Below are positions 10,013-62,163 of a stretch of DNA of 64,000 bases, in pieces (position 1 is the stretch's first letter; each line of letters opens with the position of its first letter). Origin of the DNA: Candidatus Shapirobacteria bacterium (lineage in GTDB: Bacteria > Patescibacteriota > Microgenomatia > UBA12405); NCBI GenBank assembly GCA_041661765.1, contig JBAZTV010000003.1, positions 79,914-143,913 of the forward strand, read 5' to 3'. A program made the position numbers and the translations under genes. A model generated the notes under the pieces. It ran no database searches and was not told the DNA's origin. It saw only the letters and a list, made by a program, of their open reading frames with translations.

Positions 10013-10086
10013 GCCTAAGTAGCTCAGTTGGTTAGAGCAGCTGTTTTGTAAACAGCAGGTCGTGAGTTCGAATCCCACCTTAGGCT
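10013..10086 (+). tRNA. tRNA-Thr (anticodon UGU)
   Basis: Acceptor gcctaag/cttaggc, D-arm gctcagttggttagagc, anticodon stem gctgt/acagc, loop tttgtaa, T-loop ttcgaat. The T-stem has one A-C mismatch. Confidence 0.75.
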
Positions 10087-10130
10087 CTTTTTTATTTAAC
10101 TTTTTGATACAATATCAAAGTATCAATTGT

Positions 10131-10203
10131 GCCCGGATAGCTCAGTTGGTAGAGCATCCCCTTGGTAAGGGGAAGGTCATGAATTCGAGTTTCATTCCGG
10201 GCT
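10131..10203 (+). tRNA. tRNA-Thr (anticodon GGU)
   Basis: Acceptor gcccgga/tccgggc, anticodon stem tcccc/gggga, loop ttggtaa, T-arm atgaa-ttcgagt-ttcat. Confidence 0.8.
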
Positions 10204-10247
10204 CATTTTATCTAAAAGGAGGGTATGCCCTCCGAAACTTTAGTGAA

Positions 10248-10330
10248 GGAGGGGTGCTCCGAATGGTAAGGAACTTGTTTTGAAAACAAGCGTCAGTAAT
10301 GACATGTAGGTTCGACTCCTATCCCCTCCG
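10248..10330 (+). tRNA. tRNA-Ser (anticodon UGA), with long variable arm
   Basis: Acceptor ggagggg/cccctcc, anticodon stem cttgt/acaag, loop tttgaaa, long variable arm gtcagtaatgacatg, T-loop ttcgact. Confidence 0.75.
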
Positions 10331-47896: not shown

Positions 47897-47968
47897 CAGG
47901 CCCATGAGGATTCGAACCTCAAATAAAGGTTTTGGAGACCTTGGTGATAACCATTTCACTATGGGCCT
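47897..47968 (-). tRNA. tRNA-Trp (anticodon CCA)
   Basis: Minus-strand acceptor aggccca/tgggcct, D-stem gtga/tcac, anticodon stem aaggt/acctt with loop ctccaaa, T-arm tgagg-ttcgaat-cctca. Confidence 0.8.
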
Positions 47969-48009
47969 AAATTTTAAAGTGGATCTATCCACAAAATTTC
48001 TAACAAGGG

Positions 48010-48082
48010 TGGACCCAAGGGGACTCGAACCCCTGACCTTCCCCATGCCATGGGGACGCGCTACCAACTACGCTATGGGCCC
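48010..48082 (-). tRNA. tRNA-Ala (anticodon GGC)
   Basis: Minus-strand acceptor gggccca/tgggtcc giving the G3:U70 Ala identity pair; anticodon stem tcccc/gggga, loop atggcat; T-loop ttcgagt. Confidence 0.8.
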
Positions 48083-48134: not shown

Positions 48135-49019
48135 ATGACCAACATTTCTAAGGCCGTCATCACCGCCGCTGGCCGAGGCACTCGTTTCCTTCCTGTTGTT
48201 AAATCTTATCAAAAAGAATTAGTTCCAATTCTTGCCAAACCAAATATTCAATATTTAGTTGAAGAAGCTATTGGAGCCGGTATTACTGAAATAGCCATTG
48301 TTCATCGTCCCGGTGAAGATGCTATTAAAGACTACTTCTCTCCAGATCTTGAACTGGAAAAATACTTACAAGAAAACAATAAAATGGAGTATCTTGATAG
48401 TTTAAAAGCTATTAGCGACAAAGTTAATTTTTCCTACTTTGCCCAAAGCCCAGAGTTACCCTACGGCAATGGTTCCCCTATTATCGCTGCCAAAGAATTT
48501 ATTGGCACCGACCCTTTTGTTTATATGTTCGGCGACGACTTAATTGTTGAATCAATTCCTGGACAATATTTAACTAAAATGATTGCCTCGTTCAACAAAT
48601 ACCAAATCGACGCCATCGTTTCTACTCAAGAAATGCCCACCATTGAAATGAAACGCTACGGAGCTGTTGTTCCCCATTCCAACCCTTCTATTCCTCATCA
48701 AATTAGTGCTCTACTTGAAAAAACCGATCCACCTCCATCTAATTTCGCCGTTGTTGGTCGATATGTCATCTCTAATAAAATTATGGATGTAATTAAAAAT
48801 CAAAATACTTCCAAAGACAATGAACTTTGGTTGGCTGATGGTTTAAATACTTTAACTCAAACAGGCATTGTAGCCGATGAACCAATAACCAATGGCGTTT
48901 GGATGACCACTGGCGATCCTCTTCGATGGCTTCAAGCCAACATTGCTGTTGCCCTTCAAGACCCAAAATTCAAAGATGATTTAAGAGAATTTTTAAAAAA
49001 TTTAAATGTCAATAAATAA
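48135..49019 (+). CDS. galU: UTP--glucose-1-phosphate uridylyltransferase (copy 1)
   Basis: KAVITAAGRGTRFLPVVK...LVPILAKPNIQYLVEEAIGAGI. The track ORF start at 47904 overlaps the tRNAs, so it is trimmed to Met 48135. Confidence 0.8.
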   Translation: MTNISKAVITAAGRGTRFLPVVKSYQKELVPILAKPNIQYLVEEAIGAGITEIAIVHRPGEDAIKDYFSPDLELEKYLQENNKMEYLDSLKAISDKVNFSYFAQSPELPYGNGSPIIAAKEFIGTDPFVYMFGDDLIVESIPGQYLTKMIASFNKYQIDAIVSTQEMPTIEMKRYGAVVPHSNPSIPHQISALLEKTDPPPSNFAVVGRYVISNKIMDVIKNQNTSKDNELWLADGLNTLTQTGIVADEPITNGVWMTTGDPLRWLQANIAVALQDPKFKDDLREFLKNLNVNK

Positions 49020-49887
49020 AGCCGTTATTGCCGCTGCTGGTCGAGGTACTCGTTTTTTACCCGTAGCAAAGGCTTATGCAAAAGAATTAGTTCCCGTTCT
49101 TGCCAAACCAAATATTCAATATTTAGTTGAAGAAGCCATTGGCGCTGGTATCACCAACATTGCCATTGTTATTCGTGTTGGCGAAACTACAATTAAAAAT
49201 TATTTTTCCCCCGACAAAAACTTAGAAAAATATTTAATCGAAAATAATAAAATCGAATATCTAGACAGTCTTAAAAATATTTGGAAAAAAGCTAAATTAA
49301 CTTTCATCGAACAACCATTAGGTTTACCCTATGGCACCGGCTCTCCTGTTTTAGCCGCCAAAAAATTCATTGGTAACGACGATTTTGCCTATTTCTACGG
49401 CGACGATTTTATTTTAGAAACCACTCCAGGTCAACTACTTTCCAAAATGATTTCCAAATTTTACCAATATCAAGCCTCTGCTATTTTAGCTGTTCAAAAA
49501 GTCCCCATGGAAGAAATTTATCGTTATGGCAGTATTAAATACATCAACGATCCCAATTATCCTAATCGCATGTCCGAAATTCTCGAAAAACTTCCAGCCG
49601 ACCAAGCCCCATCCAACTCAGTTAATATCGGCCGCTTTATTGCTTCAAATAAAATTTTGAAAAATATAGATATCAATAAACTCTCCAGAGACAACGAATT
49701 ATGGTTCACTGACGCCCTTACCAAACTCGCTCAATCCAATATTGTTCTGACCCAATCCACTCAAGACTCACTCTGGTTAACTACTGGTGACCCTCTCCGC
49801 TGGCTCAAAGCCAATATTTCAACTGCTCTCCAAGACCCAACACTAAAAGACGACCTATCCTCCTTTCTAAAAACTCTTTCGGTTTAA
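49006..49887 (+). CDS. galU: UTP--glucose-1-phosphate uridylyltransferase paralog (copy 2)
   Basis: KAVIAAAGRGTRFLPVAK...LVPVLAKPNIQYLVEEAIGAGI; a tandem paralog overlapping copy 1 by 14 bp. Confidence 0.8.
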   Translation: MSINKAVIAAAGRGTRFLPVAKAYAKELVPVLAKPNIQYLVEEAIGAGITNIAIVIRVGETTIKNYFSPDKNLEKYLIENNKIEYLDSLKNIWKKAKLTFIEQPLGLPYGTGSPVLAAKKFIGNDDFAYFYGDDFILETTPGQLLSKMISKFYQYQASAILAVQKVPMEEIYRYGSIKYINDPNYPNRMSEILEKLPADQAPSNSVNIGRFIASNKILKNIDINKLSRDNELWFTDALTKLAQSNIVLTQSTQDSLWLTTGDPLRWLKANISTALQDPTLKDDLSSFLKTLSV

Positions 49888-50016
49888 AACCAGAGGGATT
49901 TCTACACACCCGATAAGTATTTTTATATAAGCCAAAGATCCCTATAGTTAATTTATTACTGCTATCTAAATCAAATAAATCCCTTATTTGTGCCTAATTT
50001 TAAAACAACTTACTAC

Positions 50017-50045
50017 TTGACATAGACCTATAATAACAATATAAT
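50017..50045 (+). promoter_or_regulatory. consensus sigma70-type promoter TTGACA-17-TATAAT
   Basis: ttgaca (50017-22), 17-nt spacer, tataat (50040-45). Confidence 0.55.
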
Positions 50046-50051
50046 ACATAC

Positions 50052-50263
50052 AGGATTAATAAAATAATTCGTACTTTTATAATCAACCCTAAATTGTTCA
50101 AAGGAGAGATTTGGAGTGTGGCTCCTCTAGAGTTTCGCACCCCGTTTCTCCTTTGAACAATTAAATTTAAAGGAGAGATTTGGAGTGTGGCTCCTCTAGG
50201 GTTTCGCACCCCGTTTCTCCTTTGAATTTAAAACAAAAAAGCCGCAACTAGCGGCTTTTTTTT
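50052..50263 (+). ncRNA. candidate ~210-nt small RNA containing two tandem ~65-nt hairpin repeats, ending in an intrinsic terminator
   Basis: Repeat 1 (50094-50160) has a perfect 14-bp stem ttgttcaaaggaga/tctcctttgaacaa. Repeat 2 (50163-50229) is near-identical. Terminator gccgc-aacta-gcggc + T8 at 50241-50263. Not protein-coding; the minus ORF 50000-50209 is a repeat artefact. Confidence 0.45.
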
Positions 50264-60811: not shown

Positions 60812-61657
60812 TCATTTACATAAAGGGCATTTATCGCCAGAATAATAACAATCACATTTTTCACAATGTTTCAAATTATCAGTATTTTCTAAACTATAAA
60901 CCAACTCTCCATTAGCGCCTACTGAAACAACTATTCCAATTTCACTATTTCCATTATTCCAAGAACTTCCATGTCCTCCTTCAGCGTTAATTTCATTCCC
61001 CATTCTTGCCATAATACTTTCAAACAAATAATTATCACCACCTGCCTCTTCCATCGCCAATCGAACATCTTTTTCCATTTTTATTTTATTCTCGACATCT
61101 TCTCCATTTTCAATAAAGTCCCAAATATCCATAAACTCAGGCATTAATTTTTTACATTCCTGTATCCAATCATCAATTTCTTCAATCCTAAATCCTATCG
61201 GTTGTTGCCTTACGCTTTCTTTATTATTAATTGAATTTATAGATTTTCCATTATTATTTAACAATCTTTTAACCAATTCAAACGATTCATTTTCATCACA
61301 AAGCAAAGGCATGTGTTTTCCATAAAGTGCCCACTCGTTTTTTCCAAAAACAGGGAATTCTATGTTTAATCTACCTTCTTTATATACTTCTCCTCCATCA
61401 TCAGGGCTTATCCAAACCACCAGGTTGTATCCTGCTTTACCTAAAGCAAAAACGTTAAGTGTTGCTTCTTTTTCTTCTTCAGAATGTCCATTATATTCCC
61501 AATTATCTTTTTCTATATTATTTTCTGAATAAAGATCTGAAATATTTATTCTATTTCTCAAATCTAAATCATTAGCTCTCTCTTCTAAAAACGCCCCCGC
61601 AATTTCACCTAGAGAATTTTGATTAATATCGTAAAACTTTTTATTTTCTAAATTCAT
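60812..61657 (-). CDS. hypothetical protein with C-terminal CxxC..CxxC zinc ribbon
   Basis: CEKCDCYYSGDKCPLCK at the C-terminus. Confidence 0.4.
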   Translation of the reverse strand: MNLENKKFYDINQNSLGEIAGAFLEERANDLDLRNRINISDLYSENNIEKDNWEYNGHSEEEKEATLNVFALGKAGYNLVVWISPDDGGEVYKEGRLNIEFPVFGKNEWALYGKHMPLLCDENESFELVKRLLNNNGKSINSINNKESVRQQPIGFRIEEIDDWIQECKKLMPEFMDIWDFIENGEDVENKIKMEKDVRLAMEEAGGDNYLFESIMARMGNEINAEGGHGSSWNNGNSEIGIVVSVGANGELVYSLENTDNLKHCEKCDCYYSGDKCPLCK

Positions 61658-61740
61658 ATTACTTTTGCTCGAAAGTTTTGGTTATCCGGCTTTACGGTTG
61701 CGGCACAGCCTAGGAATTTCACCTAGTTCCCCATTAATAA

Positions 61741-62163
61741 TTATTGTTTATTTTGTTTTACTGCTTCTAAAAATAAATAATCAGAAAGTCTATTAAAATA
61801 GACCAACATTTTTTTGTCAATTTTTTGCTCCCTATTCAAAGAAACCATTCGTCTTTCCACTCTTCTACAAACAGTCCTCGCCCAATTTAATTTCAATGCC
61901 TTTTTGCTTTTAAATTTCAAAAATTTATTTAAATTAAAATCTTTATCTATTTTTAAATGATCAATCTTAAATTTAACTCCACCTCCCAACTCACCCATTA
62001 TCCCACTTAAATCATCAACAATTTTTTTTTCCACTCCAATTAACTCCAAAATTGATTGCAATTCATCAATCGAACCCACTACTTCAACCAACAAATCATC
62101 CTTGTCGATTCGTTGGTTTCCGCAAGTCGTCTGCCCTTTGTCTCCAGTTTTAGTTGTTATCAT
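61741..62163 (-). CDS. PduO-type ATP:cob(I)alamin adenosyltransferase
   Basis: MITTKTGDKGQTT...VVGSIDEL..., the PduO/MMAB N-terminal signature; sits adjacent to the B12-dependent RNR. Confidence 0.7.
   Translation of the reverse strand: MITTKTGDKGQTTCGNQRIDKDDLLVEVVGSIDELQSILELIGVEKKIVDDLSGIMGELGGGVKFKIDHLKIDKDFNLNKFLKFKSKKALKLNWARTVCRRVERRMVSLNREQKIDKKMLVYFNRLSDYLFLEAVKQNKQ

What the first reader, a model, noticed from the sequence alone, without database searches (positions are those of the whole stretch)
50017..50263. Candidate structured sRNA: consensus promoter, two tandem 65-nt long-stem hairpins, intrinsic terminator
A textbook TTGACA-17-TATAAT promoter (50017-50045) precedes two tandem copies (1-2 nt different) of a ~65-nt element. 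Each folds with a perfect 14-bp closing stem (ttgttcaaaggaga/tctcctttgaacaa) around an inner ggag...ctcc hairpin. A gccgc-aacta-gcggc-T8 terminator follows. There is no plausible ORF (the only ORF is an antisense repeat artefact). The unit is separate from the downstream gene, which has its own promoter (TTGACG-17-TATAGT). It could be a novel regulatory sRNA, a protein-sponge RNA with duplicated binding modules, or a decayed repeat array. It is not CRISPR, since the spacer is only ~4-10 nt.
Basis: seen in the sequence. Interest (0 to 1): 0.65.

Follow-up and report, generated by a model that had tools for sequence, protein, structure and literature searches.

The report
Conserved modular hairpin small RNA gene
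The flagged stretch is a real small RNA gene that is not in Rfam or the papers I could search: a Candidatus Shapirobacteria genome (one of the tiny "candidate phyla radiation" bacteria) carries it with its own promoter and terminator, it consists of one to three copies of an almost invariant 70-base hairpin, and about forty related genomes have it too, but its function is unknown.

Summary
Window 50017-50263 contains the only perfect TTGACA-17-TATAAT promoter in 64 kb, two tandem about 70-nt hairpin units that differ at 2 of 61 bases, and an intrinsic terminator.

Scans of public genomes and metagenomes found the same gene in about 40 Patescibacteria loci (Shapirobacteria, Woesebacteria and relatives). 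Every locus has the same promoter. Most also have a leader hairpin. Each has 1-3 units and, in most complete loci, a G+C-rich terminator whose sequence differs between lineages.

The 53-nt unit core matches at 47-53 of 53 positions, while the neighbouring galU gene is only 69-84% identical in DNA. The outer stems differ between lineages but stay complementary. A second unit type carries an extra hairpin with compensatory changes. G-U pairs, promoter and terminators all point to the + strand.

There is one locus per genome and none in viral contigs. No Rfam family matched, and nothing turned up in the literature I could search. Two pairs of 99.9%-identical strains differ by exactly one unit.

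So this is a stand-alone, structured small RNA, not a MITE, a CRISPR or TIGR array, a type III antitoxin or a riboswitch. Function is inferred only. The most likely role is a multivalent RNA whose repeated modules bind a sequence-specific partner, more probably a protein than an mRNA. Expression has not been shown.

The parts
49981..49998 (+). Conserved upstream box CCCTTATTTGTGCCTAAT, about 20 nt 5' of the -35. Possibly a regulator binding site.
   Evidence: Aligned in most Shapirobacteria-type loci. It appears in inverted orientation (GCACAAATTAG) in L009/L015. Its function is not tested.
50017..50045 (+). Sigma-70-type promoter TTGACA-17-TATAAT, with a conserved CCTATAAT inside the spacer.
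   Evidence: 12/12 match. Unique in the window, 0.03 expected. TTGAC is invariant and the -10 sits at a fixed distance in all 30 distinct upstream regions.
50053..50070 (+). Leader hairpin GGAUUA-AUAAAA-UAAUUC.
   Evidence: Predicted in the minimum-energy fold. Hairpins of different sequence occupy the same place in L003, L009 and L015, and the leader is absent in L032, L042 and L044.
50073..50081 (+). Conserved single-stranded leader motif ACUUUUAUA (family consensus ACUUU(U)AAAA).
   Evidence: Conserved in all loci that have a leader, including L003, whose leader hairpin differs. Unpaired in the fold.
50092..50162 (+). Hairpin unit 1 (type A). The invariant core is 50100-50154.
   Evidence: 16-bp perfect outer stem. 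Model score 100.2 bits. The core is identical to the commonest family sequence.
50161..50231 (+). Hairpin unit 2 (type A; apical A-to-G change at 50200, C-to-U at 50168 giving a U-G pair). The invariant core is 50169-50223.
   Evidence: The strain in L001 lacks one unit through recombination between units 1 and 2.
50235..50263 (+). Intrinsic terminator AAAAAA-GCCGC-AACTA-GCGGC-T8.
   Evidence: Most complete related loci have a G+C-rich hairpin plus T run about 35 nt after the last unit, with at least 9 different stem sequences.

Best explanation
**What it is.** Window 50017-50263 is a stand-alone gene for a structured small RNA of about 210 nt, read on the + strand. It runs from a consensus promoter, through a short leader hairpin and the motif ACUUUUA, to an intrinsic terminator. 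The body is built from reiterated modules, two here and one to three elsewhere.

**The module.** Each module is a long bulged hairpin with these parts:
- an outer stem that is free to vary;
- an invariant 9-10-bp lower stem, AAAGGAGAG/UUUCUCCUUU;
- a small internal loop;
- an invariant second helix, GAGUGUG/CGCACCC, with an unpaired A;
- an apex that comes either as a short CU-rich loop (type A) or as an inserted hairpin (type B).

**How it most likely works (inferred).** The RNA acts in trans. Each module is a separate, equivalent, sequence-specific binding site for one conserved partner, more probably a protein than an mRNA. The RNA would then work as a multivalent sponge or scaffold, or be cut at its AU-rich linkers into about 70-nt hairpins.

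**Shown and not shown.** Shown by comparison: the gene architecture, the strand, the secondary structure of the stems, strong purifying selection on the core, single-copy status, and turnover of unit number. Inferred: transcription, trans action, and the nature of the partner.
For: **Gene architecture.** It is conserved in about 40 loci from at least four named lineages. TTGAC and the -10 are invariant. Terminators differ in sequence but keep the hairpin and T run.

**Structure.** Over 46 distinct units, 95.7% of cells are paired. Eight pairs show changes on both sides. None of 500 shuffles reached the observed covariation score, and slid registers drop to 41-57% paired. The type B apical hairpin has compensatory changes at 3 of 6 pairs.

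**Strand.** On the + strand 95.7% of cells pair, with 154 G-U pairs. On the - strand 85.4% pair, with 30 G-U pairs.

**Selection.** The core matches at 47-53 of 53 positions, while the adjacent galU gene is 55-89% identical in protein and 69-84% in DNA.

**Independence from neighbours.**
- In L063 the upstream gene has its own terminator before the RNA promoter.
- In L042 the RNA lies between a divergent and a convergent gene.
- L044 is a different genomic context.
- The next gene usually has its own promoter.

**Modularity.** Complete arrays are A (8), AA (13), AB (5), BA (1) and at least AAA (1). Types A and B share the lower stem, internal loop and second helix but differ at the apex. This places the constrained determinant in the lower part, as expected for a protein site.

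**No mRNA target found.** None in the window scores above shuffled queries, and Shine-Dalgarno motifs are rare in this genome.
Against: No transcript data of any kind were available. No partner protein was identified. The genes next to the RNA encode sugar-nucleotide enzymes and variable envelope proteins, not RNA-binding proteins. Invariance of both strands of a helix also fits a tertiary fold (ligand-binding or catalytic) or a dual-use pairing strand. A CU-rich GCUCCUC stretch is predicted unpaired in most type B units and partly unpaired in type A, which would suit a base-pairing seed. The inner helices are almost invariant, so they are supported only by one-sided changes (U-G/U-A, G-C/G-U). 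One common variant (U to C at alignment column 71) creates an A-C mismatch on the + strand.
Confidence: 0.55

Rival explanations
1. A base-pairing regulatory sRNA. The CU-rich stretch GCUCCUC (in the type A apex, and in the 3' internal loop of type B), or the strand UUUCUCCUUU, resembles the 16S anti-Shine-Dalgarno sequence. It would pair with GGAG-containing ribosome binding sites of a few mRNAs, and several modules would give several seeds.
For: GCUCCUC, or at least CUC, is retained in both unit types although its position in the fold differs. The architecture (promoter, hairpins, terminator) is typical of trans-acting sRNAs. TAGAGGAG occurs 4 times outside the locus in the window against 1.1 expected for all 6 matches. 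Those four sites were not examined.
Against: Far more than a seed is invariant. RNAduplex scans of all 5' regions in the window gave nothing better than shuffled queries. Only 4 of 45 long ORFs have GGAG upstream. The candidate seed strands are mostly buried in very stable stems (-37 kcal/mol per unit).
Confidence: 0.2
2. A new ligand-binding or catalytic RNA fold, for example a module that cleaves itself out of the array or senses a metabolite.
For: Near-total invariance of about 50 nt, including both helix strands and the internal loop, is typical of aptamer or ribozyme cores. Tandem arrangement and AU-rich linkers would suit processing into monomers.
Against: No match to any ribozyme or riboswitch model in Rfam 15, even at E = 10. 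The predicted fold is a simple bulged hairpin with no multi-helix junction. There is no expression platform coupled to the terminator, and no conserved downstream gene.
Confidence: 0.1
3. A cis-acting element of the neighbouring operons: a 3'-UTR stabiliser or terminator of galU, or a leader (attenuator or processive antiterminator, like put or EAR) for the downstream envelope genes.
For: In most loci the RNA sits directly after galU and before membrane or glycosyltransferase genes on the same strand. The scan listed no terminator between galU and the RNA promoter in the window.
Against: The RNA has its own invariant consensus promoter. In L063 an upstream terminator precedes it. L042 has no co-oriented neighbours, and L044 sits in another context. 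Downstream genes vary and usually have their own promoter.
Confidence: 0.08
4. A DNA-level repeat: a MITE or REP-like palindrome, a recombination site, or a decaying duplication with no RNA function.
For: The units are palindromic, tandem and variable in number between near-identical strains.
Against: One locus per genome and per window. The core is conserved far above a neighbouring enzyme gene. G-U pairs are asymmetric between strands. Promoter and terminator are conserved.
Confidence: 0.03
5. A guide or antitoxin array (CRISPR, TIGR stem-loop array, or type III toxI-like), or a mini-ORF attenuator (GUG UGG CUC CUC UAG = MWLL behind an AAAGGAG Shine-Dalgarno sequence).
For: - The layout of promoter, tandem repeats and terminator resembles toxI and TIGR arrays (PMC12045711).
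- TIGR stem-loop arrays also have variable palindromic flanks.
- The only two base changes seen inside the type A mini-ORF keep its reading unchanged: CTC to CTT in L042 and TAG to TAA in L024.
Against: - The interior of the units is constant within and between genomes, so there are no spacers.
- Arrays have only 1-3 units.
- Pfam found no toxin, Nop or Cas domain in the flanking proteins.
- The downstream genes are variable secreted or membrane proteins.
- Type B units change the frame and length of any ORF, while their hairpin covaries.
Confidence: 0.04

Closest known systems
Protein-sponge sRNAs with reiterated hairpin modules (CsrB/RsmY/RsmZ, CrcZ)
   Same: Stand-alone gene with a strong promoter and an intrinsic terminator. 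The body is made of repeated, equivalent hairpin modules whose number varies between lineages.
   Different: Csr/Rsm modules are short hairpins that show GGA in the loop. Here the GGA of AAAGGAGA lies in a stem, and the second GGA is lost in types A2 and B. About 50 nt per module is invariant, rather than a 3-5-nt motif. No Rfam Csr/Rsm model matched above threshold. No partner is known.
Type III toxin-antitoxin antitoxin arrays (toxI of ToxIN, cptI, tenpI)
   Same: Promoter, tandem direct repeats, Rho-independent terminator, then a protein gene on the same strand. Processing into unit-length RNAs is plausible.
   Different: Those repeats are about 34-45 nt pseudoknot units and are followed by an endoribonuclease toxin gene. 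Here the units are 69-90 nt hairpins. The downstream proteins are unrelated secreted or membrane proteins with their own promoters, or are absent altogether as in L042.
TIGR stem-loop arrays (TIGR-Tas; PMC12045711)
   Same: Found in Patescibacteria among other hosts. Tandem units are flanked by variable but always palindromic sequences, and a terminator follows the array.
   Different: TIGR units carry two variable 8-12-nt spacers between short box C/D motifs. Most arrays have 5-15 units and lie next to a Nop-domain Tas gene. Here the interior is invariant, there are 1-3 units, and no Nop domain was found in the eight flanking proteins.
Tandem or multi-seed base-pairing sRNAs with C/U-rich loops (LhrC1-5, RsaE/RoxS)
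   Same: CU-rich unpaired stretches that could pair with ribosome binding sites. The functional element is reiterated.
   Different: In those RNAs only the seed is conserved and the stems drift. LhrC copies each have their own promoter and terminator. RsaE scored 21.8 bits against a threshold of 79.
REP/BIME/MITE intergenic palindromes
   Same: Tandem imperfect palindromes in an intergenic region, with copy number that changes by recombination.
   Different: Those elements are dispersed in tens to hundreds of copies and have no promoter of their own. This element is at one locus per genome and is framed by a conserved promoter and terminator.

Membership tests
Any Rfam 15 family | Covariance-model score at or above the family's gathering threshold | tested here: not met
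   The whole window at gathering thresholds gave only tRNAs and an AdoCbl-II riboswitch elsewhere. The locus at E up to 10 had a best hit of BTnc231, 27.1 against 80.4 bits. The type A+B array of L025 had best hits of 36 against 80.4 and GcvB 34.2 against 42. In the alignments shown the matches rest largely on the terminator.
CRISPR array | Short repeats (about 23-47 nt) separated by unique spacers of similar length, usually many units, with cas genes nearby | tested here: not met
   The period is 69-81 nt. The segments between cores are 13-30 nt, self-complementary, and shared between genomes. Arrays have 1-3 units. No Cas domain was found in the flanking proteins.
TIGR-Tas array | Two variable 8-12-nt spacers per unit between box C/D motifs | tested here: not met
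   The unit interior is identical within arrays and matches at 47-53 of 53 positions between genomes. Criteria taken from PMC12045711.
TIGR-Tas array | Adjacent Nop-domain Tas protein | tested here: not met
   Pfam scan of the eight proteins flanking the locus found NTP_transferase, F420_ligase, SHMT or no family. The rest of the window was not scanned.
Type III toxin-antitoxin (ToxIN-like) | Endoribonuclease toxin gene directly downstream of the repeat array and terminator | tested here: not met
   The downstream 229-aa protein has a hydrophobic N-terminus that looks like a signal peptide, no Pfam family, and no homologue outside its own cluster. Downstream genes differ between loci, and in L042 the downstream gene is convergent.
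MITE / REP dispersed repeat | Many dispersed copies per genome | tested here: not met
   Only the two tandem units are found in the 64-kb window, by pattern with 3 mismatches and by covariance model. Each genome in the 185,579-species scan has one locus; the two CAYRMT01 contigs are one locus broken at the repeat.
Csr/Rsm-type sponge RNA | Multiple GGA motifs displayed in hairpin loops or single-stranded linkers | tested here: not met
   The invariant GGA lies inside the lower stem. The second GGA (UUGGAGU) is replaced by CAGAG or CUGAG in types A2 and B.
Csr/Rsm-type sponge RNA | CsrA/RsmA encoded in the genome | not tested
   Only a 64-kb window and 8-kb loci were held. No whole genome was available.
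Riboswitch / cis-regulatory leader | Consistent position in the 5' UTR of a conserved gene class, with an expression platform | tested here: not met
   Downstream genes vary and have their own promoters. L042 is stand-alone. The terminator does not overlap the units.
Trans-encoded bacterial small RNA (generic) | Own promoter and terminator conserved with the body; non-coding; conserved structure | tested here: met
   No conserved reading frame: type B changes frame and length.
Trans-encoded bacterial small RNA (generic) | A detectable transcript of the predicted size | not testable with these tools
   No expression data were accessible.

The most novel reading that the evidence does not exclude
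The about 53-nt invariant module is the RNA half of a lineage-specific ribonucleoprotein, or a new functional fold (self-processing or ligand-binding), peculiar to Microgenomatia-type Patescibacteria. One version: its lower stem copies a Shine-Dalgarno/anti-Shine-Dalgarno duplex (AAAGGAG/CUCCUUU) in an organism that hardly uses Shine-Dalgarno sequences. It would then act as a decoy for a factor that recognises the 3' end of 16S rRNA.
Probability: 0.12. Interest if true: 0.8.

Novelty: new member of a known kind. Interest (0 to 1): 0.55.

Why it matters
My literature searches found almost nothing on regulatory RNAs of candidate phyla radiation bacteria, and nothing for this group. These organisms have genomes under 1 Mb, and most are known only from metagenomes. 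This RNA is more conserved than the enzyme gene next to it and is driven by a textbook promoter. It is built from exchangeable modules whose number changes between near-identical strains.

That makes it a concrete, easily synthesised handle on RNA-based regulation in these organisms. It also gives a ready-made covariance model for annotating their genomes. If the partner proves to be a protein, it would point to an unknown RNA-binding factor in a group where Hfq-, ProQ- or CsrA-type systems are not established.

Tried and rejected
1. **Rfam.** Searched at gathering and at permissive thresholds on the window locus and on a type A+B array. Nothing reached a family threshold.
2. **Viral contigs.** Two patterns, 0 hits, so no sign of a phage origin.
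3. **Minus-strand RNA.** A neat three-way junction can be drawn and two point variants would suit it. Overall, though, pairing is 85% against 96% and G-U pairs are 30 against 154. Promoter and terminators also point the other way.
It is weakened (A opposite C) in type A2 units and absent as a local hairpin in type B units.
5. **Peptide coding.**
   - A TTG-started 17-aa frame is lost in type A2.
   - A GUG-started 12-aa frame changes at almost every variant.
   - The 4-codon MWLL frame is intact in all type A units, but this is not significant, and it is replaced by frames of other lengths in type B.
6. **mRNA targets.** RNAduplex of the apex, the 3' stem strand and the leader against all 5' regions in the window gave nothing better than shuffled queries.
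7. **Integron attC site.** Compared by eye, the ends do not fit RYYYAAC/GTTRRRY.
8. **SRP RNA, 6S RNA, K-turn.** By eye there is no GGAA-tetraloop/AGCA motif and no tandem G-A pairs. The variable length also argues against 6S.
9. **CCTATAAY box as a general promoter element.** It is not enriched in the window: 5 found, 5.25 expected.
10. **More distant relatives next to galU homologues of 62-65% identity (L067, L070).** The covariance model found no unit there, so the family seems limited to a subset of the group.
11. **Literature.** Searches by topic and by sequence string found no description.

Full report
**1. The observation**

A TTGACA-17-TATAAT promoter lies at 50017-50045. It is the only perfect match in the 64-kb window, where dinucleotide shuffles give 0.03 on average.

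Two direct copies of 61 nt follow, at 50097-50157 and 50166-50226, with 2 differences and a period of 69. A 49-nt core pattern with up to three mismatches finds only these two places.

- Unit 1 is closed by a perfect 16-bp stem.
- Unit 2 is closed by a different 16-bp stem with one U-G pair.

The terminator GCCGC-AACTA-GCGGC-T8 is at 50235-50263. The 220-nt + strand folds at -87.4 kcal/mol, z = -9.9. The only ORF over the repeat is a 69-aa antisense frame. Rfam 15 has no family for it, at gathering thresholds or at E up to 10.

**2. Source and close strains**

The adjacent 293-aa NTP-transferase (GalU-like) protein is 100% identical to a protein named by NCBI as coming from a Candidatus Shapirobacteria MAG.

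A contig from another sample (L001) is 99.98% identical to the window over 8.7 kb but is exactly 69 nt shorter. It has one unit, made of the left arm of unit 1 and the right part of unit 2. The window's two units differ at several positions, while the rest of the DNA differs at 2 of 8,726 bases. I therefore read the two-unit form as older and L001 as a deletion by recombination between the units.

A second, independent pair shows the same pattern. L063 and L064 have two units. L065 is 99.9% identical and has one, 75 nt shorter.

**3. Relatives**

A pattern taken from the core (GGAGTGTGGCTCC-N5-15-CGCACCCC) was scanned over one genome for each of 185,579 species. It found 10 true loci, all in Patescibacteria MAGs:
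- three labelled Shapirobacteria;
- one labelled Woesebacteria;
- one labelled 'Patescibacteria group';
- five contigs from four MAGs labelled 'uncultured Gammaproteobacteria', which share the same gene neighbourhood and are probably mislabelled.

It also gave four chance hits in G+C-rich DNA.

A looser pattern over JGI metagenomes added about 30 loci. No hit was found in 2.9 million viral contigs with either pattern. Each genome has one locus.

**4. Anatomy of the family**

Every locus that is complete on the 5' side has TTGAC(A), a 17-nt spacer that usually contains CCTATAAT, and a TATAAT-like -10.

Most then have a small leader hairpin. Its sequence differs between lineages but keeps its pairing. 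ACUUU(U)AAAA follows. L032, L042 and L044 lack the leader.

Then come the units. Among non-redundant complete arrays there are 8 with one type A unit, 13 with AA, 5 with AB and 1 with BA. One array has at least three units.

In most complete loci the array is followed about 35 nt later by a G+C-rich hairpin and a T run, with at least nine different stem sequences.

**5. The unit**

An alignment of 46 distinct units (A1) shows an invariant block: AAAGGAGAG ... GAGUG.G ... CACCC.G.UUCUCCUUU. The ten positions on either side vary.

For the structure of a long hairpin with a small internal loop and an unpaired A:
- 95.7% of 1,195 cells are standard pairs;
- 8 outer-stem pairs have changes on both sides;
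- the covariation score is 0.264, against 0.098 in shuffles (0 of 500 reach it);
- sliding the partner by 1-3 columns drops pairing to 41-57%.

The outer stems fall into at least six unrelated sequence classes. Examples are AAAUUGUUC/GAACAAUUU, UUAAAGAC/AUCUUUAA, CUUAGACACC/GGUGGCUAAG and UUAACAAUU/GUUUGUUAA.

The inner helices are almost invariant. They are supported only by one-sided changes: U-G/U-A in 41/4 units and G-C/G-U in 38/7.

A second unit type (B, 7 distinct sequences) keeps the lower stem, the internal loop and the second helix. It replaces the short apex by an inserted hairpin that shows clean compensatory changes: CCCGC/GCGGG, CCCGA/UCGGG, CCGCC/GGCGG and CCUGA/UUAGG.

**6. Strand**

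The same pairs counted on the complementary strand are 85.4% paired, with 30 G-U pairs. On the + strand they are 95.7% paired, with 154 G-U pairs. Three positions that are G-U on the + strand would be A-C on the other strand in nearly all units. Together with the promoter and the terminators, this fixes the + strand.

Two variants do not fit this. U to C at column 71 gives an A-C mismatch on the + strand. G to A in the L024 apex also disrupts a + strand pair. I report both as evidence against.

**7. Selection**

Against the window:
- the neighbouring galU gene is 55-89% identical in protein and 69-84% in DNA;
- the 53-nt unit core matches at 47-53 positions;
- the core is identical in many genomes whose galU DNA is about 70% identical.

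Leader, outer stems and terminators appear to diverge in step with the neighbouring genes. This argues for vertical descent under strong constraint rather than recent transfer.

Units within one array are nearly always identical to each other, even where arrays differ between lineages. Examples are A2/A2 in L017, A3/A3 in L049, and the CUAAAG variant in both units of L024. This concerted evolution fits the inter-unit recombination seen directly in the two strain pairs.

**8. Context**

In most loci the order is galU, galU, RNA, a variable secreted or zinc-ribbon membrane protein, sometimes a family 2 glycosyltransferase, and a roughly 900-1,000-aa polytopic membrane protein. The 229-aa protein after the RNA in the window has no relative outside its own cluster.

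Three loci show that the RNA is independent of its neighbours:
- In L063 another gene with its own terminator precedes the RNA promoter.
- In L042 a single unit with its own promoter and terminator lies between a divergent rfbB-like gene and a convergent gene.
- In L044 the surroundings are different again.

Two more distant galU loci (L067, L070; 62-65% identity) have no unit within 3.5 kb.

**9. What it does**

Nothing here measures function. I considered six readings.

- *Binding module.* The lower stem, internal loop and second helix are invariant. The outer stem and apex are free. Module number varies. No mRNA target stands out. Shine-Dalgarno motifs are rare in this genome, with 4 of 45 long ORFs having GGAG upstream. 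Together these fit best with a reiterated, sequence-specific binding module for one conserved partner, probably a protein.
- *Base-pairing sRNA.* This would use the CU-rich GCUCCUC stretch, or the anti-Shine-Dalgarno-like strand. It remains a serious rival.
- *New aptamer or ribozyme fold.* The data do not exclude it.
- *Cis-acting roles.* These are unlikely given the stand-alone loci.
- *DNA-level repeat.* Unlikely given single-copy status and the strand asymmetry.
- *Guide or antitoxin arrays.* The interior of the units does not vary, and no nuclease or Nop-domain gene is nearby.

**10. Novelty and limits**

The family is absent from Rfam 15. Searches of 8 million papers by topic and by sequence string did not find it.

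It is a new family of an established kind: a bacterial small RNA with repeated hairpin modules.

The limits are:
- no expression data;
- no whole genome in hand;
- inner helices supported mainly by conservation and thermodynamics;
- a family alignment that was seeded with patterns from the core, which biases it towards conserved cores.

Noticed in passing
window 61671-61748 (-): AdoCbl-II (cobalamin) riboswitch, RF01689, 44.5 bits against a threshold of 36.5. It lies just upstream of the ORF at 60812-61657 on the same strand.
   Followed up: no
L067 5618-5672 (+): Type III hammerhead-like sequence (CUGAUGA ... GAAA; RF00008, 37.1 bits, below the 48.5 threshold, E = 6e-7). It sits in a related Patescibacteria contig just upstream of a CCTATAAT-CTTGAC promoter, roughly where the hairpin RNA gene lies in other genomes.
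   Followed up: partly
window 50027-50034; related loci directly after their terminators: A CCTATAA(T/C) box is conserved inside the spacer of the RNA promoter. In most related loci it also sits immediately 5' of the -35 of the next promoter (CCTATAAC-TTGACA). It is not enriched in the window as a whole: 5 found, 5.25 expected. It may be a regulator site shared by the two promoters.
   Followed up: partly
window 49981-49998: A box CCCTTATTTGTGCCTAAT is conserved about 20 nt upstream of the -35. In L009/L015 a similar sequence appears in the opposite orientation (GCACAAATTAG).
   Followed up: no
window, whole: Most long ORFs have A/T-rich sequence and no Shine-Dalgarno motif upstream: GGAG occurs within 20 nt of the start in 4 of 45. 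Meanwhile the RNA carries two perfect AAAGGAG/CUCCUUU duplexes.
   Followed up: partly
window 48135-49019 and 49006-49887 (+): Two tandem paralogous GalU-like NTP-transferase genes, about 73% identical in DNA to each other. The pair is conserved in most related loci. The 371-aa ORF listed from 47904 starts inside the antisense tRNA genes, so it is probably too long at its 5' end.
   Followed up: no
L067 5690-5860 and L070 5455-5640: The two loci that lack the hairpin RNA share a long conserved sequence downstream of a CCTATAAT-TTGAC promoter (CCGATACT..AAAGTATCAA..TTAACAAAGTAAAACTA..ATCAAAACA..GCGTTTT). It could be a structured 5' leader or another RNA.
   Followed up: no
window 10013-10330 (+) and 47897-48082 (-): tRNA clusters of three and two genes. 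The pair at 47.9-48.1 kb is kept next to galU in related loci.
   Followed up: no
window 1-64000: GC skew is strongly negative over most of the window and turns positive between about 20 and 36 kb. The turn coincides with a block of + strand genes.
   Followed up: no
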